From a virus (taxonomy: Duplodnaviria > Heunggongvirae > Uroviricota > Caudoviricetes), in the IMG/VR virus record IMGVR_UViG_2802429224_000018: a stretch of 8,598 nt of DNA. One strand, 5' to 3'. The translations under genes were made by a program, and so were the position numbers. Under the pieces are notes generated by a model that did not search any database, had not been told where the DNA came from, and was given only the letters and a program-made list of their open reading frames with translations. Positions 1 through 8,598 of the stretch are shown here, piece by piece; position 1 is the first letter of the stretch, and each line of letters opens with the position of its first letter.

Positions 1-1980
1 TTATGAATTAATTGATCGTGAAATCTCACACCAATAAACTCCATCAAATTGAAGTTCTATTCTATCAAGACCACTATTAGGGACCCAATCACCATTGAGA
101 CGCAAATTACCAGACATGTCTTTCAGGGTAACGATATCTGATGAAGTTGCAATCCCAAGAAGCAACCTTTGCCATTGCGTACCACCATTAATCGTGGTTA
201 AATCAACCCTTCCTCCAGATAAACGGTGGAATGAGCGGGTTACAGTTATTGCCCCGGAAATGACTGGTAAAGTAGTCGCTTCATTTACTTGTTTTTTTAT
301 TAGATTGACTTCTGGCTTAAGATTGCCATCTTTATCAAGAACCATTACGTCAGAAGTTCCATATCTAAACTTCAATTTATTTTCATCACTATCATCACGA
401 TATATTTTTAAACCACTAACAGTAGAATTAGCAGAATCGCCAAACTGAATAGAGCTATCTGTAGTTCCATCTGTCTGTGTTTCTGCCCTGGCACGCAATC
501 CTTTACCCTTATGCCAGACATCAAATCCACGCCAAGATGGGCCACCAACCAATATCACACTCCCCCCAGCGGAGTTCCCAATACATGAGGCATCCTTATA
601 AACTGGATCGTCTGTAAATCTGCACCCAATAAAATAAACATCGCCAGTGGTGTCATCACCAACGAACCTTGAGGTATTGGCTGTAGGGTCAGATGTGTAA
701 TCAGGAAGCTCCATCACCACACTTTGAAAAACAACATTATTGGCGCTATATAATTTTATAGCATCATTACCATACTGCTGAATTCGACCGCCTGTAATAT
801 AATGTCCATTAATAGAGAACCCACCGCCATCAATAACTAATGCCGTACTATTAAATTGTCCTGTTTGCCGAGAGTGATGGTCGTTTGCATACAAATCCCA
901 ATTATCCCATCTGGTTTCACTTAGACCGTGGCTGCCTGTTCCAAGAACTATAAATCCAACATTGCCAGACGAAGATCCGTTTATGAACTTTGTACCATCA
1001 GGGTCTGATCCATAATGAATAACCCCTGCAACTGGGAAATACCCCCACACCGTTATATTTTCGTACCTCCCCCTCGTAACATCGTTGCAGAACAGCCCAA
1101 CATCATAATTAGAACGATTATCAGATGAAATGCCTGTTAATTCCCCACTTTCATTTAAGACATCCATATCCATAACGATAGCAATATTTGTCATTGAGCG
1201 TGGTGAGCTGTCACCTGCTCCGTCTTTTACACAATAAGTAAAGCTATCGTATGGTGAACTTCTTACAGTGCTTCCTTTCGCAATACCAGTACCTGAGAAT
1301 ATTAATGTTGTCCCTGGAATTTTATTTTTGTATCCCGGCCTCAGAAATCTCTTATCGTCCTGCCAGTTTGGGAAAGCACCCATTTTAGGAGAGAATACCC
1401 CCCTCCATTCCGCTGCTTTTTTCTCAATCCCATTTGAGCATCTAAATTGACCGTGAGGAAAATATAGTGCTTTCCCATTTTGCGCACACCATTCATCAGC
1501 AGCAATTATTGCTTCCGTGTCATCAGTTATATAATCTCCTCTTGCCCCCCAAGCACGAACATCCCCCTCATCACGCCATCTTGATATCTGAAGAAGTGGA
1601 TATTTCATAACACCATCAGGATCTTCTAACTGCTGGCGAAGCTGATCCGGGTCGTACTTCAACACATTAGGGAAATAGAACTGCTGCGCCCCATATGCAT
1701 CGTACACAGCCATAGAATGTCCTTGCACAGTTACGAACTTGGCAATCTGTCCGTTATATACCGGATATCCAGCAGCGTTAATGATGATGGGTTGCGAAAC
1801 AGGAACGTGAGAACCGTCTTCGTTCTCCACATAAACCTGAATCTGGTTTTCAGGGTTTACCGGGTCAGTGTCAATTTTACCGATATAAATTTTGCCATTG
1901 GCTACGGCTTTAAAAGAACGTGCCATAGTGAAGAGTTGCGAAGGCATCGATACAATCACATTGGCTGTAATGTCTGTCAT
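1..1980 (-). CDS. Tailspike protein: P22-family capsid-binding N-terminal domain fused to a beta-helix, pectate-lyase-like receptor-binding/depolymerase domain
   Basis: 659-aa ORF, ATG at 1980-1978 with GGAG 8 nt upstream, TAA at 3-1. The first ~113 aa ([43 protein letters not shown]...VLKYDPDQ) match from memory the conserved head-binding domain of P22/Sf6/HK620-type tailspikes. Just downstream is [18 protein letters not shown]...[11 protein letters not shown], the G-x-G-D-x-x-TDDT...YFP-x-G signature typical of pectate-lyase-3-type phage depolymerases. Position as the last late gene after ant matches P22 gene 9. Confidence 0.9.
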
Positions 1981-2046
1981 TTAATTTGCTCCAGATACAA
2001 GGAATCGCCGCAGCATGGCTACGGTTGGGATTTGTTTGGTTTTTGA

Positions 2047-2065
2047 ACTACGAAAATTTCGTAGT
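2047..2065. repeat. Perfect inverted repeat (9-bp arms, 1-bp centre) in the ant-tailspike intergenic region
   Basis: ACTACGAAA-a-TTTCGTAGT read directly; it lies 67 bp upstream of the tailspike ATG, between the ant terminator and the tailspike gene. Function unknown. Confidence 0.4.
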
Positions 2066-2116
2066 GCTATCCATCAAGGCCATCGCCGCTTAGTTGCTGC
2101 GGTGAATTTTGGGCAT

Positions 2117-2140
2117 AAAAAAACCCAGCCGAAGCTGGGT
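2117..2140 (-). terminator. Rho-independent terminator downstream of ant
   Basis: On the minus strand: GC-rich stem CCCAGC / GCTGGG around a UUCG tetraloop, immediately followed by seven T residues (plus-strand A-run 2117-2123), ~20 nt after the ant stop codon. Confidence 0.8.
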
Positions 2141-2158
2141 CGTTGCGTTGGTTATCTG

Positions 2159-3088
2159 TCAGTAGTTATGTATTGAAGGAGGTAATTCTTTATTCTTAAG
2201 TCTCATCCATGCGGAAAGATTCGTTGGTCCGTCTGGCTCATTGATATCAACATCTCGTGTGTGATTGATTAAAACGTCTCTCGCCATTCCGATAACATAC
2301 GAGAACTCATGACCATAGTCGTAGCATCTGCCGGAATAGTTCGATTGAATTTGTTTTAGCGCCGGATACAATTCGCGGAATAATGCCTGTGAGCGGTTGG
2401 CATAATCCCATAACCATACAAGACTGTTTGCTTCTTTTGCAGAAAGCTCGTTGGTTTTCTTATCTTGTTTGCCGATGAACTCTCCTTCAAGCGGAACGCG
2501 AGCAGCAAGTGACAGTGCTTCGGTAAACTGCTCCTCACTGATTTCTTTGTACGAACATCCAAAATGGGATTTCAGTGACGACCACATGGTGATCATCGCC
2601 TTAGCCTGTTTTTCTTTTGGCAGAGACTGACCGCGACTCATGACGAGTTGTTTAATGGCTTCCTGCTGTTCAGTGGTGATTTTACCCGGCAACGCCTTTT
2701 TAGCTTTGCGTGGGTTAACTACATGGCCTTTAGTCCAGTACTCGTATAGCACATCGTCACACTCTTCCTGATACTGGATTACCTTGTCGCGGATTTCAGG
2801 GCGGACTTTGTTAGGACTGATGGTTTGCAGCCAGCCAGCAAGTTTGCGAAGTGCCAAACAAATAATCTCACGGCACTGTTCATCACCAGGAAGCTGCATT
2901 GTGATTTTCACAATGGAGGTTTTAAACCGTTGCTTTATTTTCGTAAACTGTGAAGCCCAATCCATACCCATTCCCTCAACGATAGGTTTCATTGGGGTGT
3001 ACGGATCACCGTTGTGATTGACGACATAAAGCTCTGCGCCGTGGAATGGCACGTTGATAGTAGATACCGCTGTTGCTATACTTTTCAT
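2159..3088 (-). CDS. ant: Antirepressor Ant (P22 immI-type)
   Basis: 309-aa ORF, ATG at 3088-3086 with AGGAA 9 nt upstream, TGA at 2161-2159. It lies immediately downstream of an Arc-like gene and divergent from an Mnt-like gene, which is the canonical immI arrangement. The N-terminus ([23 protein letters not shown]...) is recalled as P22 Ant-like; P22 Ant is ~300 aa. Confidence 0.8.
3054..3082 (+). promoter_or_regulatory. Psar-like sigma70 promoter inside the first codons of ant, firing antisense
   Basis: TTGATA (3054-3059), a 17-bp spacer, then TATACT (3077-3082) on the plus strand. The predicted start near 3089 is directly opposite the ant start codon. Confidence 0.5.
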
Positions 3089-3160
3089 GTCAATATTTCC
3101 TAAGCCGATTTGTTGATACCGAAGCCCTGACTGTTACAGCAGTTGGGGCTTCACTGTTTT
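3089..3160 (+). ncRNA. sar: sar-like small antisense RNA complementary to the ant ribosome-binding site
   Basis: The Psar-like promoter upstream and an intrinsic terminator (hairpin 3121-3152 plus T-tract to 3160) bracket a ~70-nt transcript. It is fully complementary to the ant Shine-Dalgarno and leader (3089-3105). P22 sar is 68-69 nt with the same placement and orientation. Confidence 0.55.
3121..3160 (+). terminator. Intrinsic terminator of the sar-like RNA
   Basis: GAAGCCC (3121-3127) pairs with GGGCTTC (3146-3152); the stem can extend to ~13 bp with two G-U pairs around a 6-nt loop. It is followed by ACTGTTTTGATTTCTTT on the plus strand only; the minus-strand side is not U-rich. Confidence 0.55.
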
Positions 3161-3320
3161 GATTTCTTTGCCGCATCAAGCATCACTTCTGAAAACGTGC
3201 GCTTGCCACTGAATACTCTTTCTCTTCTCAATTTTTCGTTCGTGCCAAATGATTCGCCATGAACAAAATTTGGTCTCAAAATGGTAAGCGCAATCTCTTT
3301 GACTACTGCATCCAAGCAAA

Positions 3321-3461
3321 TCACACTGTTACCCCCTCCCTCTTCAGGCTGTCCAGCACCCGTTTAATTACTTCTGCGCTGAATGAGCGACACTCTTCCT
3401 TTGCTTTTTCTTCAAGAATTTTTTCTAGCTTCTCTGGCATACGCAGTGTTTTTACCTTCAT
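3321..3461 (-). CDS. arc: Arc-like ribbon-helix-helix repressor (46 aa); not present in the supplied ORF track
   Basis: Manual translation of the minus strand: ATG at 3461-3459 with GGAGGA 4-5 nt upstream, TGA at 3323-3321. Product is MKVKTLRMPEKLEKILEEKAKEECRSFSAEVIKRVLDSLKREGVTV, which aligns with P22 Arc as recalled (NLRWPREVLDLVRKVAEENGRSVNSEIYQRVMESFKKEG): L-R-x-P, A-x-E-x-x-R-S, E-x-x-x-R-V and K-x-E-G are conserved. It is upstream of ant and divergent from mnt. Confidence 0.8.
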   Translation of the reverse strand: MKVKTLRMPEKLEKILEEKAKEECRSFSAEVIKRVLDSLKREGVTV

Positions 3462-3480
3462 TGCATCCTCCGTTGTATGT

Positions 3481-3540
3481 GGTACGCATACATAGTATTT
3501 AGGTACGCATTGATAGTCAATAGATACCTACATATCCTGT
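3481..3540. promoter_or_regulatory. Divergent Pant/Pmnt promoter-operator region
   Basis: Minus strand (Pant): -35 TTGACT (plus 3520-3515), 17-bp spacer, -10 TACTAT (plus 3497-3492). Plus strand (Pmnt): -35 TTGATA (3510-3515), 17-bp spacer, -10 TATCCT (3533-3538). The two -35 boxes overlap within the palindromic core TTGATAGTCAA. Around it sits a 31-bp imperfect palindrome centred at 3515 (TAGGTA...TACCTA outer arms, 11 of 15 arm positions symmetric) and a 15-bp direct repeat GGTACGCATnnATAG at 3481-3495 and 3502-3516. Confidence 0.55.
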
Positions 3541-3566
3541 GGTAAAAAATTATTCAGGATGTGCCG

Positions 3567-3818
3567 ATGTCTGATCGTAAGTACAAAAACCCTCAAGTGA
3601 ATCTGAGGCTTCCTGTAGAGATAAAGGAACGTCTTATTGAACTGGCTGAGGCTAATTCTCGTTCATTAAATGCCGAGATGGTCGCGGCACTTGAAGCATG
3701 GACCGAAAAAAATAAACACATTCAAGCACTAGACCTTGCAACTATAGCATCACGATTGATAGATCTTGAACGCGATGTTGAGACGCTAAAGACCATGTAT
3801 GGTAAGGATGAAAAATGA
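3567..3818 (+). CDS. mnt: Mnt-like ribbon-helix-helix repressor (maintenance of lysogeny; represses Pant)
   Basis: ATG at 3567 with AGGA 7 nt upstream; the track's GTG at 3561 is too close to the SD. 83 aa, TGA at 3816-3818. NPQVNLRLPVEIKERLIELAEANSRSLNAEMVAALEAW aligns with P22 Mnt as recalled (PHFNFRMPMEVREKLKFRAEANGRSMNSELLQIVQDAL). Same length as P22 Mnt and divergent from arc. Confidence 0.85.
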   Translation: MSDRKYKNPQVNLRLPVEIKERLIELAEANSRSLNAEMVAALEAWTEKNKHIQALDLATIASRLIDLERDVETLKTMYGKDEK

Positions 3819-4024
3819 ACAAAAAACAGTTTATTAAGTCAACAACGTCAAGCAAGGAAGAGCTAGAGAAGGAGCTAAACTCCCTGAAATATGCTCTGTG
3901 CCTGGTTTACTCAAGACTGCCAATGGAAGATAAAAACGCCATTTACAATGAAATGATTAGCAGCCTTGATTTTAACGATAGAGACCTAGCATCCCACCTC
4001 AACAGCTTCCGCGTCCCTGAGTAA
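3815..4024 (+). CDS. Hypothetical 69-aa protein, translationally coupled to mnt
   Basis: Its ATG (3815-3817) overlaps the mnt TGA (3816-3818) in an ATGA junction; AAGGA 6 nt upstream; TAA at 4022-4024. Predicted soluble and helical; I recognise no family. Confidence 0.6.
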   Translation: MNKKQFIKSTTSSKEELEKELNSLKYALCLVYSRLPMEDKNAIYNEMISSLDFNDRDLASHLNSFRVPE

Positions 4025-4184
4025 TTCTGTTGCGGATTTGCTTCTTGCGGTGGTTTAAGCTGGAGAGCTTGGCTTCTGCTTCTGATATTTGTGCATCAAG
4101 ATCTTTAAGCTCAAGATCTGAAAGTCGCTGGTCAAGCAAGGTTTGGTTCAACTCAATGTTGTTCAGGCGTTCTTCTATGGTCAT
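3999..4184 (-). CDS. Hypothetical 61-aa charged coiled-coil protein
   Basis: ATG at 4184-4182 with AAGGTG ~5 nt upstream. Heptad-like, Leu/Glu/Asp/Lys-rich sequence (LNNIELNQTLLDQRLSDLELKDLDAQISEAEAKL). Its 3' end overlaps the 3' end of the 3815-4024 ORF by 26 nt. Could be a chance ORF. Confidence 0.35.
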   Translation of the reverse strand: MTIEERLNNIELNQTLLDQRLSDLELKDLDAQISEAEAKLSSLNHRKKQIRNRITQGRGSC

Positions 4185-4209
4185 ATTGTCACCTTAGTGG
4201 GAGGTTGGT

Positions 4210-4509
4210 GTGAAGCGATGGGTTATAGGTGCATTCTGTTTTCTAATTAGTGGTCTTGCACAATCGCAAGATAAGGATCTGAAATTTGCTAACGACATGT
4301 TAGTTACAGCTAAAGTTGCTGGCATGTGTGGAACATTTAAACAAATGTTTGCTTTTCAAGAAGCAACCCAGATGCCAGGCGGAGATGAATTTATTGAACG
4401 TTTTTTGAATACGGAAATTTCTCGCCTAGGGATGTCACTTCAAGAGTTCATGAAGTTGTGCACAGATTCTATAGAGTCATACAATAAATTAAAAAGGATG
4501 TCAGAATAG
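4210..4509 (+). CDS. Hypothetical secreted (signal-peptide) protein, 99 aa
   Basis: GTG start at 4210 with GGGAGG 5 nt upstream. N-terminus MKR-WVIGAFCFLISGLAQS-QDK has the n/h/c organisation of a Sec signal peptide; the mature part (~80 aa) is helical with two Cys. TAG at 4507-4509. No recognisable family. Confidence 0.6.
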   Translation: MKRWVIGAFCFLISGLAQSQDKDLKFANDMLVTAKVAGMCGTFKQMFAFQEATQMPGGDEFIERFLNTEISRLGMSLQEFMKLCTDSIESYNKLKRMSE

Positions 4510-4523
4510 CCATCCATGGCTAT
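4506..4523. repeat. Perfect inverted repeat ATAGCCAT-cc-ATGGCTAT (8-bp arms)
   Basis: Read directly from the sequence. It overlaps the stop codon of the 4210-4509 ORF and sits just upstream of the SD of the mini-ORF, between the convergent accessory cassette and the gp16-like gene. Confidence 0.35.
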
Positions 4524-4535
4524 CTGGAGGTTAAT

Positions 4536-4604
4536 ATGGTAACAATCGGTTGGATTATTGTTGCCCTGCTTGTTGCTCTGTGGGCAAAGAATCGTTACTA
4601 CTGA
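4536..4604 (+). CDS. Candidate 22-aa hydrophobic mini-protein ([22 protein letters not shown]); not in the ORF track
   Basis: ATG at 4536 preceded by GGAGG with a 6-nt spacer; a single predicted transmembrane helix with a basic/aromatic C-terminus; TGA at 4602-4604. Caveat: its last 50 nt are antisense to the 3' end of the gp16-like gene, and antisense of Gln/Glu-rich coding sequence tends to look hydrophobic. Confidence 0.25.
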   Translation: MVTIGWIIVALLVALWAKNRYY

Positions 4605-6723
4605 GAAAAGCGACAATACCAACGCGGGCTAGATTTTTCTTCTCGTCCGCTGATAGCGTATTTACCCAATCCCTATATGGTTTCACTTTCTGCATTGAAG
4701 CATCCACCGATTTCCTAGAGGCTGGGGTGCTGGCGTGACCTGCGGCAATCCTTTTTGAGAGATTTTTAAAAGCCGGAGATGCTATTAATTCATCAGCGGC
4801 AGCCATTCTTGAGTTTTTACCAGAACGGAGGAGGCTAAAGAGTACCCCTGCCGTACCGGCTCCAGGCGCTCCAATGGCTGTGGTTAGCCCTTCTGCTTTA
4901 GCCACGTCTTTTCCTATTCCATATATACGCCCAAGCATTCCCTTCTCTCCTGCGAACTGATTCATCATCCGGTCAATTTGAGAGGAGGAATACACCTTCT
5001 CGCTGCCCACCCTTTGCATGCCAGAAGCCACCTCATAGATGTTTCTCAACCTACGCGTAGCCGGATAGCCAATTGCCCGGCTCAATGCCTGCATATTTGA
5101 TTTGTTTCTTGATAGCCCTTCATACCACTTAACAAACCCAGGAACACCAAGTGACTGCCCGGGAGATTTAGCGAACGTAGTGAAAGCCCTATTCATTGCG
5201 GTGGCAACAGCTGGTTGCACCATGTCATCAGGAAGATTTGAAACTAGGCGACGGAAGTCACCTCCCTTTCCTTGAGACATATCGACGATAGCTTGCTGTA
5301 ATTGCGGCACTATTCCTTTATCCAAGTCTCTGCCAAGATTTTGAACAGCGGCTGCCTGTACTGCGAATCTCTTTCTCCCGATCTCTCTAGCTAAATTCCA
5401 TGTATCCTCTGCACCATATTTGGCAGCAGCGGCTCCCTGATCTTGTATCAGTGCGCTTTCAATAATTCCAAGGTGCCGAGCGTCGATGCCGCTATATGGC
5501 CCTTTATCCATCTCTTTGCCAAGAGCCCTTCCAACCTGTCGTCGAACTGCATCAAGAAGACCATAAGTCGGGGCGGTGTTTGGGTCTATTTGTTCCAAGG
5601 TCTTTGACAGTTGAGGATATAGCGATTTTAGTTTTTCTAGCCCACCGACATCATCTGCAATATCCTCAATGGCGTTAGTGGTATGGGTGGTATCTACGGT
5701 AGCTCTTGTTGGAATTTTTGCTCTAATTTGATTGTATAGAGTGTCTTCTTGGCGCTTCAGGTTTGATCTTAACTCCTCATAAGAGCTTTTTACCTTTTGA
5801 TTGATAAAGTCCTTATCAACGCTCCCACCAAAATCATTAATAAATTTATCTGCCTGCTCTCCAAGCCTACTAATGGCCTCTCGCTGTGCGTGGAACAGTT
5901 TATTCCCTGGGGTTGCAGCTAAAGCATTTTCAAACGCGCGGTAAGAAGGGTTGCTGGAGTACATGCCGGGAGTTAAGGCATCTTCCATCCCAAGATTGCG
6001 GGCGGCCTGTAGCACAGAATCATCTGGTGAAACAGCTTTCGCGAGAGCATTTAAACCAGATCTGTTTCCTGTTATTGGATTCACATCTGTAGCTTTCGTT
6101 GCAACCCTCGCCATTCCACTAAGTTCAGATGCCTGAGACATTTCTGCCGATGGAGGCTTAAACCTCTTCGTAACCGCACTGGCTGCTTTGCTAATCACTG
6201 GAGATGCCAATTCAGCAATTGGACCAGCGGCAGCACCTATAGCCGCCCCTGTAGTTACATTGCCACCGGTTCCGTTAGCAACAACACCACCTTCAACAGC
6301 GCCAAGCCCTGCGGCGGCAGCCAGCCTTGCCGCCCCTTTCGGAACCTGAGAAATAATCCCACCACCACTAACAAATGGCGCTGCTTGTCCAACAAACTCA
6401 CCAACATCTTGTGCGGTTGATGGTTTTGCCGCTAACTTCTGCTGTAGAGACTGAATTGCGGCTTGCTCTTCTGGTGTCATATCCTGAAACAGGCCAACAC
6501 CTTTACCAATATCCATCAATCCACTGAGAACACCATACATAAAACGGTCGAAACCGTTAGCATTATTAACAACATTTTCCTGTCTGGAATTTTCCTCTGG
6601 CGAAACCAAAGGTGATTGCTGCTGTTCTGGTTGGGCATCAAGCACAAAACCATCAGGAAGCTGTGAGTTATCAGGCTGATTATCGAGAACAAAGCCTTCG
6701 GGTAAACCTACATCGGTTGCCAT
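4555..6723 (-). CDS. Ejection (DNA-transfer) protein, P22 gp16-like
   Basis: 722-aa ORF, ATG at 6723 with AGGAA 7 nt upstream, TAA at 4557-4555. It is the third of three consecutive late genes directly upstream of the immI module, matching the P22 order 7-20-16-(sieA)-mnt-arc-ant-9. Ala/Gly-rich internal stretches. The start overlaps the preceding gene's stop by 16 nt. Confidence 0.75.
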
Positions 6724-8051
6724 TGTCCGTTCCTGTAAATGAGTTTCTGACCAGTTTTAGGGTTCGTTGCCGTCGCGCCTTCTGATATCCCACTTGGCGC
6801 AGCTTTTGTCTGCCCATTACCACCTTGTGGTGTAGGCTGCGCTGGGACATCGTCAAATAGCTTGGCCTTCCTTCTCCCTAAGCTTTTTTTCAGCCCCTGA
6901 GGAATAGTATCTCCATACGTATCCAGATATTCGTCTACCTGCTGGTTAAACTGCTGCCCCATAGCGTTGGCGTTAATTTTTGCTGCGTTAACAATGTTAT
7001 CCCTCGCTTCCTGTGACAAGCCATTCCCTGCATTAAGCTGGTCTACATATCCTTTTATCTGCCCCCATATGCCATCAGAGCGCATAACCTGAACCTGTTC
7101 ACCTTCGCGAACAACTGACTGAGGGTCGAGAGACTTCATGTAATTAAAGATAATCCCAAGTTGGGCAGCGCCAGTATTTACCTTGCTAAGGGCTTGCAGA
7201 GAGTTTGCCGCCGCTCTGACAGAGTTATAATTTTTGCCAAAATTGGTAATGTCAGAATTTAATCCCTTAATTAAGTCTGCTGACGGCTTACCTTTTTGCC
7301 CCAGCTCCATTAGCTTCAATCCCATCTCATCTGAGTGCATTTGTGCCCGCTGAGCCCTGTCTAGTTGAGCGTTCTGGATATTTGCCCATCCTCTCGCATT
7401 CTCCATATCAGCCTGACGGATGCTTTCATCCAATCGCCCTTTCTCAAGTTGGCGACCAACCATCTTATCCTGAACAGCAAACGCCTTTTCTGGTCCAAGC
7501 GCACCGAGAGACATAGTAGTCAGCATGTGTGATAGCTGCTCTGGATTCTGAATACCTGTCTGAATCATCCAGTCAGCATTCGCCCCCACGCGATTTAACC
7601 TGTCCTTGTTATCAGTAATGAATTTACTGTAGGCTTCCGGTCCCTGAGAAAGAGCGACGTTAGCCCTCATGGCTAAATCGCCCATATCGTTGCGTTGCTG
7701 CTCATTAAGACCGGAAAACGCCTGTTGTGCCTGTGTAACAAACGCTGGATTTTCCTGGGCAAACTTAAATAGTCCCGATGGATCACCAGAAGCCCATGCA
7801 TCAGCGTGAACCTTATTGAACGCATTAATCGCTTTCTGTTGCTGTTCCTGCTTATAAATATCAGCAACTCCAGCCAGACCACGTAACGCGGTCAGACCAA
7901 CGTTATTTGCACCTGAGCGAGCCAATTCATTGTTTTCGCGGATCAGACCAAGCGTTGCGTTAATGTCGCTTGCCTTTGGCGCATTCTCATTTTGCGTACC
8001 GATGCCAGCCAGAAAACCACCAGAATTAATACCCTGTTGCCACGTAGCCAT
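6708..8051 (-). CDS. Ejection (DNA-transfer) protein, P22 gp20-like
   Basis: 447-aa ORF (P22 gp20 is ~470 aa), ATG at 8051 with AAGGGG 7 nt upstream, TAG at 6710-6708. Middle gene of the three-gene ejection cluster. Confidence 0.75.
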
Positions 8052-8061
8052 TGATTACCCC

Positions 8062-8595
8062 TTAAAACAACGAGCCAAGCAATCCGATACCAGCACCAAT
8101 GCCAGCGCCCCAAGGTGTTGATGTTCCCAAAAGGCTGGCAAGACCTGCACCGGCAATCGCACCGGACGTTCCGCCACTAATTGCTGTCTGAAGACTTGAT
8201 GGTTTGTTGGCGTTAGCAGCGGCAAGTGCTGCGCTTTGCTGTGCAATGCTACTCATGTTGTTGGCGTATGTCTGCCCAGCGTTTGCCTGACCTTGCAACG
8301 CACCAAGGCCAATGTTTGCCAGATTGTTGTAGTTGCTCATTTGTCCAGATAGCCATTGCTGACCAAGCGTTGGTGCGATTGTTGCTAACTGATTACTGGT
8401 TGCGGTGGAACCCAATCCACCTGTTGCTTCCGCTGCAGCCAGACTCTGATAGCGAGCCTGACCTGCAAGGTCTTTATACTGCTGAGAGTTGTAATACTGG
8501 TTAAGCGCCTGACCTTGCCCTTCCAGAGACGATAAGTTCTCGAGGCTGCCGACATACTTCTCAGCCAGAGGAGTAAACGGTTTCAGGTTGTTCAT
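8062..8595 (-). CDS. Ejection (DNA-transfer) protein, P22 gp7-like; N-terminus at the window edge
   Basis: 177-aa ORF from the ATG at 8595-8593, TAA at 8064-8062. Gln/Asn/Ala/Gly-rich low-complexity sequence with a hydrophobic Gly/Ala/Leu C-terminal tail (GAIAGAGLASLLGTSTPWGAGIGAGIGLLGSLF), consistent with a membrane-inserting ejection protein. The reading frame is still open at 8598, so the true start may lie outside the window. Confidence 0.65.
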   Translation of the reverse strand: MNNLKPFTPLAEKYVGSLENLSSLEGQGQALNQYYNSQQYKDLAGQARYQSLAAAEATGGLGSTATSNQLATIAPTLGQQWLSGQMSNYNNLANIGLGALQGQANAGQTYANNMSSIAQQSAALAAANANKPSSLQTAISGGTSGAIAGAGLASLLGTSTPWGAGIGAGIGLLGSLF

Positions 8596-8598
8596 GAT

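What the first reader, a model, noticed from the sequence alone, without database searches (positions are those of the whole stretch)
1..1640. Mosaic tailspike with a swapped receptor-binding module
The capsid-binding domain (to about codon 113, near nt 1640) is near-identical to the P22/HK620/Sf6 type as recalled, then the sequence switches to an unrelated beta-helix depolymerase-type domain with a pectate-lyase-3 signature. This part also looks more AT-rich by eye (not computed). The specificity of this receptor-binding domain determines host O-antigen or capsule range and may be undescribed.
Basis: partly seen in the sequence, partly recalled or inferred. Interest (0 to 1): 0.5.

Follow-up and report, generated by a model that had tools for sequence, protein, structure and literature searches.

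The report
Prophage tailspike with swapped capsule-targeting domain
This is the tailspike gene of a P22-like prophage: it has the standard virion-attachment domain joined to an uncharacterised beta-helix receptor domain, and the genomes carrying it suggest that domain targets a rare, recently catalogued capsule type rather than the O-antigen.

Summary
Window 1-1980 (minus strand) is one intact 659-codon tailspike gene.

- **Head-binding domain.** Codons 1-113 are a P22-type head-binding domain: Pfam E 6e-67, 92% identical to Sf6, 97-99% to CUS-3 and other E. coli prophages, 76% to P22.
- **Receptor domain.** From about codon 160, similarity to every characterised tailspike falls to noise. The rest is a confidently modelled right-handed beta-helix plus a small C-terminal domain. 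No solved or characterised relative exceeds 17% identity by structure or 35% by sequence.
- **Known architecture.** This mosaic design is textbook for P22-like phages.

What my analysis adds is a lead on the receptor. Only 2 of 5426 complete E. coli genomes carry this receptor domain. They have different O-antigens (O23, O1). Both carry a rare group-2 capsule locus family found in 14 of 5426 genomes (chance about 6e-6). By gene and locus lengths these loci match the genotype-defined types K123 and K136.

The window comes from a non-coli Escherichia. Isolates from the same assembly series, equally diverged from E. coli, carry K123. A Rahnella-like genome carries diverged versions of both the capsule genes and the receptor domain.

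Best reading: a capsule-specific depolymerase tailspike, a new member of a known kind. The enzyme chemistry and the receptor are inferred, not shown.

The parts
1..1980 (-). Tailspike gene, 659 codons plus a stop codon at window 1-3; last gene of the prophage late region
   Evidence: ORF list. The exact protein is WP_236942048.1, 'phage head-binding domain-containing protein [unclassified Escherichia]'. The window is the reverse complement of GCA_002965365.1 PTST01000023.1, locus L008 positions 1-8598.
1642..1980 (-). Head-binding (tail-hub attachment) domain, codons 1-113
   Evidence: Pfam PF09008 E 5.8e-67. Matches solved Sf6 and P22 head-binding domains. 92-99% identical to Sf6, CUS-3, 683R2 and ANT.
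1573..1641 (-). Helical neck, codons 114-136 ([20 protein letters not shown]). A second module shared with some but not all P22-like tailspikes, and a likely recombination joint
   Evidence: 68-82% identical to CUS-3, 683R2 and ANT but 36% to Sf6. Predicted helices at 111-135. The same motif sits in P0021, which has a different N-terminal adaptor.
307..1572 (-). Right-handed parallel beta-helix, codons 137-558: the receptor-binding and presumed catalytic domain. The N-terminal cap (137 to about 188) carries the generic 'GA.GD..TDDT.A' motif
817..1413 (-). Allele-variable stretch, codons 190-388
   Evidence: 18 of the 22 receptor-domain differences between the window/E10 allele and the GF131 allele lie here (190-206, 276-283, 303-320, 350-388). 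There are none in 389-620.
4..285 (-). C-terminal beta-sandwich domain, codons 566-659 (TINGG...GNLRL...DRI.L..DG..WCE.SRS), after a low-confidence linker at 559-565
   Evidence: Secondary structure and pLDDT. It is conserved in most relatives, duplicated in P0009, and replaced by a Peptidase_S74 chaperone domain in P0006, P0013 and P0021.
1995..2025 (-). 5' edge of the exchanged tailspike cassette, 15-45 nt upstream of the ATG
   Evidence: Homology with the otherwise different prophages of E. coli E10 and GF131 starts at L008 6574 and 6604 respectively. It ends 122 nt after the stop codon (E10) or 6 nt before the end of the gene (GF131).
2122..2141 (-). Terminator-like hairpin between ant and the tailspike gene
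   Evidence: Consensus scan: GACCCAGC-TTCG-GCTGGGTT followed by a T run, at L008 6458-6477. This is a pattern match only.

Best explanation
The gene encodes the tailspike of a P22-like (Lederbergvirus-type) temperate phage, resident as a prophage in a non-coli Escherichia.

Residues 1-113 attach the spike to the tail hub, as in P22 and Sf6. P22-type spikes are trimers; that is established for the family but not testable here.

Residues 114 to about 160 (neck plus N-cap) are a semi-conserved joint, and recombination swaps receptor modules there.

Residues about 137-558 form a right-handed beta-helix. It most likely binds and cleaves a surface polysaccharide so that the virion can reach the outer membrane. 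Residues 566-659 form a small C-terminal domain that probably stabilises the trimer.

The most likely substrate is not the O-antigen. It is a group-2A (kps, ABC-transporter-dependent) capsule of the genotype-defined K123 type. A 96%-identical allele occurs in a K136 host.

The K-specific genes are a GT4 glycosyltransferase, a KpsS/KpsC-like PF05159 transferase and, in K123, a GT61 glycosyltransferase. This suggests an acidic, probably Kdo-containing polymer.

I infer glycoside-hydrolase chemistry using conserved carboxylates (candidates D271, D273, D287, D300, D328, E424). The invariant basic residues (K210, R214, R240, H368, H369, R371, R454) would hold the acidic substrate.

Shown: domain architecture, fold, mosaic boundaries, and co-occurrence with the capsule locus. 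Inferred: receptor identity, enzymatic activity, catalytic residues, and hydrolase rather than lyase.
For: Architecture and context:
- Head-binding domain and beta-helix.
- The gene follows gp7/gp20/gp16-type ejection genes and an immI region with Arc/Mnt, Ant and sar RNA.

Module exchange:
- The same tailspike (93-99% nt) sits in prophages with different neighbouring genes and different integration sites.
- The receptor-domain family is joined to at least four different N-terminal adaptors.

Receptor:
- The receptor-domain DNA occurs in only 2 of 5426 complete E. coli genomes.
- E10 has O23 wzx/wzy and GF131 has O1 wzx/wzy.
- Both have kps loci whose region-2 proteins are homologous: GT4 79% and PF05159 protein 75%.
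- That region 2 is found in only 14 of 5426 genomes. The hypergeometric chance that both tailspike genomes fall among them is 6.2e-6.

K-type matches to the kTYPr catalogue (PMC13171606):
- E10's locus matches K123: ORFs of 378, 541 and 309 aa, and a locus of 13,383 bp against 13,384 bp for the reference.
- GF131's locus matches K136: a GT of 311 aa, 12,359 bp against 12,361 bp, and the same pairwise identities.

Alleles track K-type:
- E10 (K123) has a receptor domain 100% identical to the window.
- GF131 (K136) differs at 22 receptor-domain residues, clustered in 190-388.

The window's own kind of host:
- The host flank is about 90-91% identical to E. coli.
- The K123-type GT4 occurs in Escherichia marmotae and in assemblies PTSM and PTSR of the window's own accession series.
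- In PTSR the flanking genes are 90.9% identical to E. coli and the kps locus is 95.9% identical to E10's.

Deeper co-occurrence:
- One 271,680-bp contig (GCA_964270465.1) carries a kps locus with GT4 57% and PF05159 protein 53-56% identical to E10's.
- The same contig carries a prophage tailspike whose receptor domain is 40.5% identical to the window's.

Precedent: CUS-3 is a P22-like prophage whose tailspike is annotated as an endosialidase, i.e. K1-capsule-specific.
Against: - No biochemical data exist for any family member that I could find.
- The association rests on two complete E. coli genomes plus one distant genome. The third co-occurrence was noticed post hoc.
- I could not show that the window's own assembly (PTST) carries K123. 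I could only show it for sister assemblies and the species group.
- K-type assignment was made by matching lengths and identities in a paper's supplement, not by running the typing tool.
- The capsule's composition is unknown; 'Kdo-containing' is an inference from enzyme families.
- A prophage's tailspike need not match its present host if the surface antigen was later replaced.
- Five other K123 genomes and seven genomes of the third, 77%-identical region-2 variant (probably K105) lack this receptor domain. That is expected for a non-fixed prophage but gives no support.
Confidence: 0.6

Rival explanations
1. O-antigen-specific endoglycosidase tailspike, as in P22, Sf6 and HK620. The beta-helix would bind and cut the LPS O-polysaccharide of its host, and the capsule co-occurrence would be coincidental.
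For: This is the default for P22-like phages. Published surveys link Lederbergvirus prophage tailspikes to host O-serogroup (PMC10408124; PMC2629481). The architecture and fold are the same as in O-antigen tailspikes.
Against: The two complete E. coli lysogens have unrelated O-antigen clusters, O23 and O1, while their tailspikes are 96% identical. E10's receptor domain is identical to that of a tailspike resident in a different Escherichia species. The association with the capsule locus has a chance probability of about 6e-6.
Confidence: 0.17
2. A depolymerase for another surface glycan shared across serotypes, such as colanic acid, enterobacterial common antigen or LPS core.
For: A shared receptor would explain hosts with different O-types. 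Pas et al. propose this for tailspike subtypes found in prophages of several serogroups (PMC10408124). The N-terminal 199 residues match a PHROG annotated as a colanic-acid-degrading tailspike.
Against: The PHROG match covers only the head-binding domain, neck and cap, not the receptor domain. A glycan common to nearly all E. coli would not explain why the receptor domain occurs in only 2 of 5426 genomes, both within a 14-genome capsule class.
Confidence: 0.1
3. A receptor-binding spike without enzymatic activity (an adhesin-type beta-helix), or a decaying prophage gene no longer matched to any receptor.
For: Beta-helix adhesins such as PfbA are among the top structural matches. No catalytic motif of a defined CAZy family was recognised.
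Against: The ORF is intact and highly conserved across about 89 sequence variants. Acidic and basic residues stay invariant across relatives down to 28% identity. The prophage is present in two tandem copies in E10, which is compatible with recent activity, though it could also be an assembly artefact.
Confidence: 0.08

Closest known systems
Tailspikes of P22 (gp9), Sf6 (gp14) and HK620 (gp9)
   Same: The N-terminal head-binding domain is the same: 76%, 92% and about 90% (HK620 at DNA level) identity. The gene position, the overall plan (N-terminal adaptor plus right-handed beta-helix) and the presumed role in cutting a path through a surface polysaccharide also match.
   Different: The receptor domains are unrelated in sequence: 17-24% identity (Sf6), which is noise, and no PDB sequence match for P22 or HK620 beyond the head-binding domain. 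Those three enzymes are O-antigen endoglycosidases. This one is associated with a capsule locus rather than an O-type.
CUS-3 endosialidase tailspike (K1-specific P22-like prophage of E. coli)
   Same: The head-binding domain is 99% identical, and the neck is also shared (77% over 114-135, DNA match to nt 405). It is a capsule-specific P22-like prophage. The GF131 relative uses a CUS-3-like integrase at the argW tRNA-Arg site next to yfdC, and carries an acetyltransferase beside the tailspike where CUS-3 carries neuO.
   Different: The CUS-3 tailspike is annotated as an endosialidase, and its receptor part shares only 21-25% identity (noise) with the beta-helix here. The GF131 acetyltransferase is not neuO (no DNA similarity, no heptanucleotide repeats). 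The putative capsule is K123/K136, not K1.
Tail proteins of Escherichia phages alia and vB_Eco_J-01 (Justusliebigvirus), Escherichia phage P151 (a ~40-kb phage), and Rahnella phage Sarma103
   Same: They belong to the same receptor-domain family over nearly its full length, at 32-35% identity, E 1e-68 to 1e-76. They are the closest relatives in isolated phages.
   Different: The N-terminal adaptors and phage types differ. At this divergence the specificity is probably different. I found none characterised, and the records name them only as tail protein, tail fiber protein or hypothetical protein.
Solved beta-helix enzymes (Geobacillus virus E2 ORF18, AlgE4 and alginate epimerase/lyase, Klebsiella depolymerase Depo32, CBA120 TSP1/2, Dettilon tailspike gp208)

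Membership tests
P22-like tailspike (gp9 type) | N-terminal Head_binding domain (Pfam PF09008) above the curated threshold | tested here: met
   223.5 bits against a cut-off of 24, residues 1-113 over the full model. Matches solved Sf6 and P22 domains.
P22-like tailspike (gp9 type) | Gene lies at the end of the late region, after the gp7/gp20/gp16 ejection genes and the immI (mnt/arc/ant, sar) moron | tested here: met
   PHROG and Pfam assignments of neighbouring genes. Rfam sar RNA at window 3090-3155, 62 bits against a threshold of 43.
P22-like tailspike (gp9 type) | Receptor domain is a right-handed parallel beta-helix | tested here: met
P22-like tailspike (gp9 type) | Stable homotrimer with endoglycosidase activity on the receptor polysaccharide | not testable with these tools
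   Only a monomer could be modelled. No biochemical data were found.
Pfam PF12708 (Pectate_lyase_3, now Pect-lyase_RHGA_epim) | Whole-protein score at or above the gathering threshold | tested here: not met
   25.4 bits against 27, and only residues 141-188 against profile positions 4-53 of 213. Several relatives carry a precomputed PF12708 hit.
Characterised P22-like receptor domains (P22 endorhamnosidase, Sf6, HK620, CUS-3 endosialidase) | Detectable sequence similarity beyond the head-binding domain | tested here: not met
   No match beyond residue 118 to Sf6, P22 or HK620. For Sf6 and CUS-3, 17-25% identity in forced global alignment beyond residue 160. The profile search matches only the cap.
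Capsule-specific depolymerase tailspikes (functional class) | Occurrence tied to hosts with one capsule type, independent of O-type | tested here: met
   Both receptor-domain-positive genomes (of 5426) are among the 14 with this kps region-2 family, and they have different O clusters. The sample is small.
Capsule-specific depolymerase tailspikes (functional class) | Degrades the purified capsular polysaccharide | not testable with these tools
   Requires an experiment.
Polysaccharide lyases of beta-helix fold (PL1, PL3, PL6, PL9 or K5-lyase type) | Catalytic Lys/Arg base with Ca2+ site, or family signature motifs | tested here: inconclusive
   No sequence match to any lyase beyond the cap. Structural matches to lyases are no better than to hydrolases.

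The most novel reading that the evidence does not exclude
This receptor-domain family could be the first sequence-defined family of phage depolymerases for Kdo-type group-2 capsules. The family has about 290 clusters at 50% identity, and I found no characterised member. It would co-diversify with a GT4 + PF05159 capsule-synthesis cassette across Escherichia coli, E. marmotae-like strains and Rahnella-like bacteria. The window's protein would be the cognate enzyme for the newly catalogued K123 capsule, whose structure is unknown. It would define a new glycoside-hydrolase family.
Probability: 0.25. Interest if true: 0.6.

Novelty: new member of a known kind. Interest (0 to 1): 0.4.

Why it matters
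Tailspike receptor domains set phage host range. They are also used as typing reagents, as capsule-stripping enzymes and in engineered phages or tailocins.

E. coli group-2 capsule diversity was only recently catalogued. K105, K123 and K136 are genotype-only types with no known structure, and K105 is reported as the commonest type in food isolates (PMC13171606).

A cognate depolymerase for K123 and K136 would give a direct tool to detect, degrade and structurally analyse these capsules. It would show that P22-like prophages track capsule type across Escherichia species.

If the link is wrong, the finding is simply one more uncharacterised receptor module in a well-understood mosaic gene.

Tried and rejected
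- **Characterised full-length match.** None found in 50,697 phage records by megablast or tblastn, nor among PDB sequences.
- **O-antigen hypothesis.** Weakened, because the two lysogens are O23 and O1.
- **GF131 acetyltransferase as CUS-3 neuO (K1 capsule).** Rejected: no DNA similarity and no AAGACTC repeats. GF131's region 2 is not the K1 type.
- **Capsule as K13/K20/K23 or K15.** Rejected: those loci have different gene content (PMC12887879; PMC7387560).
- **Scan of one genome per species for the receptor family.** Found nothing. IMG/VR gave only six loci.
- **Attempt to show that the window's own assembly carries K123.** The exact look-up of the E10 PF05159 protein returned one short contig. 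Only sister assemblies PTSM and PTSR could be shown.
- **Rahnella phage Sarma103 as a close relative of the Rahnella-like prophage spike P0012.** Not so: 28% identity.
- **Literature search for the assemblies or strain GF131.** Found nothing relevant.
Full report
**1. What is in the window**

The window is the reverse complement of positions 1-8598 of locus L008, which is GCA_002965365.1 contig PTST01000023.1. An identical stretch occurs in one Logan assembly.

On the minus strand it carries the end of a P22-like late region:
- a gp7-like gene (8062-8595), a gp20-like gene (6708-8051) and a 722-aa gp16-position ejection gene (4555-6723);
- small genes of unknown function;
- an Arc/Mnt-type repressor (3561-3818, plus strand);
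- the antirepressor gene ant (2159-3088), with the antisense sar RNA at 3090-3155 (Rfam 62 bits against a threshold of 43);
- the tailspike gene at 1980-1.

The host flank beyond the window (yedE, yedF, amyA, fliDST) is only about 90-91% identical to E. coli. NCBI names the exact protein WP_236942048.1, 'MULTISPECIES ... [unclassified Escherichia]'. The host is therefore a non-coli Escherichia.

**2. Check of the observation**

Residues 1-113 match Pfam Head_binding end to end (E 5.8e-67) and match the solved head-binding domains of Sf6 and P22. Identity over this stretch is 92% to Sf6, 99% to CUS-3, 97% to two other E. coli P22-like tailspikes and 76% to P22.

DNA similarity to phage records ends at gene nt 339-354 for Sf6, HK620 and N7.

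The boundary is nested. CUS-3 continues to nt 405, Gally and 683R2 to nt 437, and some E. coli prophages to nt 461-473. Residues 114 to about 160 form a helical neck and the first beta-helix cap, with the motif [29 protein letters not shown]. The same motif occurs in a relative with an unrelated N-terminal adaptor (P0021). Beyond residue 160, identity to all these tailspikes is 13-26%, which is noise.

The compositional claim holds mainly at third codon positions. GC3 is 30% in the receptor part, 48% in the head-binding part (p = 4.7e-4) and 43% in the other phage genes (p = 3e-7). Overall GC is 41.5%, 44.8% and 46.3% respectively.

The 'pectate-lyase-3 signature' is a sub-threshold Pfam hit to the cap only.

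**3. The receptor domain**

A 26-sequence alignment gave an AlphaFold model with pLDDT about 90 for residues 130-659. The N-terminal domain was poorly modelled because few aligned sequences carry it. The model shows three neck helices, a long beta-helix to about residue 558, a short uncertain linker, and a C-terminal beta-sandwich at 566-659.

In isolated phages the best relatives are 32-35% identical: alia, vB_Eco_J-01, P151 and Rahnella phage Sarma103. I found no characterisation of any of them.

In the 5.8-billion-protein collection there is one 90% cluster of 89 sequences, named only 'phage tailspike' or 'head-binding domain-containing protein', mostly from E. coli. The next relatives are 53% identical or less.

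An exhaustive profile search finds 292 representatives (50% clusters) at E of 1e-30 or better. The family is real and moderately large, and I found no studied member.

Relatives carry at least four different N-terminal adaptors (Head_binding, PF18668, PF25692, others). Some replace the C-terminal domain with a Peptidase_S74 chaperone. This is the signature of a horizontally shuffled receptor module.

Residues invariant across the family are K210, D328, H368, H369, E424 and R454. D208, R214, R240, D271, D273, D287, D300 and R371 are nearly invariant.

**4. The cassette moves**

- A second assembly with the identical tailspike protein (L007) shares flanks at 96-98.5% but has a different gp20 C-terminus, gp16 and small-gene block.
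- E. coli E10 shares only the tailspike, from 45 nt upstream to 122 nt downstream, at 98.5%. Its receptor domain is 100% identical in protein.
- E. coli GF131 shares only the gene itself, at 93% nt and 96% aa. Its prophage sits at the tRNA-Arg site next to yfdC (argW) and has a CUS-3-like integrase.
- P0001 has a divergent first 47 residues and an otherwise near-identical protein, so breakpoints also fall inside the head-binding domain.

The conserved-N-terminus, unrelated-C-terminus pattern is documented for P22-like phages (PMC2629481). Exchange of receptor domains between phage genera is also documented (PMC10408124; bioRxiv 10.64898/2026.05.19.726188).

**5. Which receptor?**

Blastn at about 65% sensitivity finds the receptor-domain DNA in only two of 5426 complete E. 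coli genomes, E10 and GF131. I located their surface-polysaccharide loci by walking the annotated chromosomes.

Their O-antigen clusters differ. E10 has O23-family wzx/wzy and GF131 has O1-family wzx/wzy with rmlBDAC.

Both have a group-2 kps locus next to pheV with homologous K-specific genes. These are a GT4 glycosyltransferase (79% aa identity between the two strains) and a PF05159 KpsS/KpsC-like protein (75%). E10 has an extra GT61 gene.

A sensitive DNA search with E10's two shared genes hits only 14 of 5426 genomes: six at 100%, GF131 at 79% and seven at 77%. The chance that both receptor-domain-positive genomes fall in that set is 6.2e-6.

The two strains differ in O-type, K-variant, prophage backbone and integration site. 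Shared descent therefore does not explain the link.

**6. Naming the capsule**

- K123 has ORFs of 378 aa (GT61), 541 aa (PF05159) and 309 aa (GT4). Its reference locus is 13,384 bp.
- K136 has ORFs of 538 and 311 aa and a reference locus of 12,361 bp.
- K105 has ORFs of 538 and 311 aa and a reference locus of 12,752 bp.
- Pairwise identities among the three are 79-80% for the GT4 and 72.6-73.9% for the PF05159 protein.

E10's genes are 378, 541 and 309 aa in a locus of 13,383 bp, so it matches K123. GF131's GT is 311 aa, its locus is 12,359 bp, and the identities to E10 are 79.2% and 74.6-74.9%, so it matches K136. The seven remaining genomes are probably K105.

These assignments are by concordance, not by running the tool. 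The polysaccharide structures are unknown. The catalogue paper reports that GT99/GT107-like domains in K-specific ORFs correlate with Kdo in the repeat unit. Its supplement lists a 537-aa PF05159 ORF in the K12 locus, and K12 is among the Kdo-containing capsules. Region 2 here encodes no sugar-nucleotide synthesis genes. I therefore infer a Kdo-containing acidic polymer.

**7. Further support**

- *Alleles track K-type.* The K123 host has the window's receptor domain exactly. The K136 host's allele differs at 22 receptor-domain positions. Eighteen of these cluster in residues 190-388 and none fall in 389-620.
- *The window's own kind of host.* The K123-type GT4 cluster includes Escherichia marmotae proteins. 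The exact marmotae-type protein is encoded in assemblies PTSM and PTSR, of the same accession series as the window's PTST, in a complete GT4-PF05159-GT61 kps locus. In PTSR the flanking gsp genes are 90.9% identical to E. coli, the same divergence as the window's host flank. The kps locus is 95.9% identical to E10's. I could not show the locus in PTST itself.
- *A deeper pairing.* One 271,680-bp contig of GCA_964270465.1 carries a kps locus with GT4 57% and PF05159 protein 53-56% identical to E10's. Its flanks are syntenic with Rahnella inusitata, which has a GT4-PF05159-GT61 locus. About 200 kb away on the same contig lies a prophage tailspike with an unrelated N-terminal adaptor and a receptor domain 40.5% identical to the window's.
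- *A conversion-type gene.* The GF131 prophage carries a cytoplasmic hexapeptide-repeat O-acetyltransferase beside the tailspike. This is the position where CUS-3 carries neuO. It is not neuO itself.

**8. Mechanism and confidence**

I am confident (above 0.9) that this is a functional-looking mosaic P22-type tailspike.

That its receptor is the K123-type capsule, with the sister allele specific for K136, is my best explanation at about 0.6.

Enzymatic cleavage is inferred from the fold, the conserved carboxylates and the behaviour of the class. Two lines of reasoning make me favour a hydrolase over a lyase. Kdo linkages are not substrates for classical uronate beta-elimination. From my own knowledge, not checked here, phage Kdo-glycanases described in the 1980s were hydrolases. 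Nothing here tests this point.

Rivals are O-antigen specificity (about 0.17), another shared glycan (about 0.1) and a non-enzymatic or orphaned spike (about 0.08).

**9. Novelty and score**

The architecture and the idea of swapped receptor modules are well known, and capsule-specific P22-like prophages exist (CUS-3). The protein is already in databases under automatic names.

What is new is the assignment of an unstudied receptor-domain family to a specific, newly catalogued capsule family. This assignment is a statistical and comparative inference.

I rate it a new member of a known kind, with interest 0.4.

Noticed in passing
window 3090-3155 (+), next to ant at 2159-3088 (-): Rfam sar RNA (RF00262, 62 bits against a threshold of 43), antisense at the start of the antirepressor gene. 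Together with an Arc/Mnt-type gene at 3561-3818 (+), this gives a complete P22-type immI region.
   Followed up: partly
window 3816-7450 (L008 1150-4782): A second assembly with the identical tailspike (L007) has no DNA similarity here. Its gp20 C-terminus, gp16 (636 aa with Pfam P22_gp16, against 722 aa with no Pfam hit here) and small genes are a different cassette. So the ejection-protein block is mosaic too.
   Followed up: partly
window 4210-4509 (+): A 99-aa ORF with an N-terminal signal-peptide-like sequence (MKRWVIGAFCFLISGLAQSQ). It lies on the opposite strand between the ejection genes and immI, and matches only a PHROG of unknown function. It may be a prophage-expressed moron or exclusion gene.
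   Followed up: no
L001 and L015 (E. coli E10, NZ_CM143887.1, about 3,824,000-3,908,000): The whole P22-like prophage is present as two tandem copies with a period of 42,756 bp, each with its own integrase and tailspike. This is either true tandem lysogeny or a long-read assembly artefact from replicating phage DNA.
   Followed up: partly
L002 14070-14765 (E. coli GF131 prophage, next to the tailspike): A hexapeptide-repeat O-acetyltransferase (WbbJ / maltose-acetyltransferase-like, far below every NCBIfam cut-off) lies between the tailspike and a CUS-3-like integrase at the tRNA-Arg site next to yfdC (argW). It is not neuO. It may acetylate the receptor polysaccharide.
   Followed up: partly
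L030 12372-13361 (GCA_964270465.1 kps locus): A 329-aa lipoprotein-like beta-helix protein (NosD/Beta_helix Pfam) is encoded inside the capsule locus. It has no blastp similarity to the tailspike receptor domain. It could be a host capsule-processing enzyme.
   Followed up: no
L037 (GCA_002965345.1) compared with L028 (E. coli E10): The kps capsule locus is 95.9% identical between an E. marmotae-like isolate and E. coli, while the adjacent gsp genes are 90.9% identical. This suggests the K123 locus moved between Escherichia species.
   Followed up: partly
L012, L013, L014 (E. coli GF131, NZ_CP172134.1): Gene order shows a large chromosomal inversion relative to K-12, spanning at least the rut/ompA to fliC/gnd region.
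   Followed up: no
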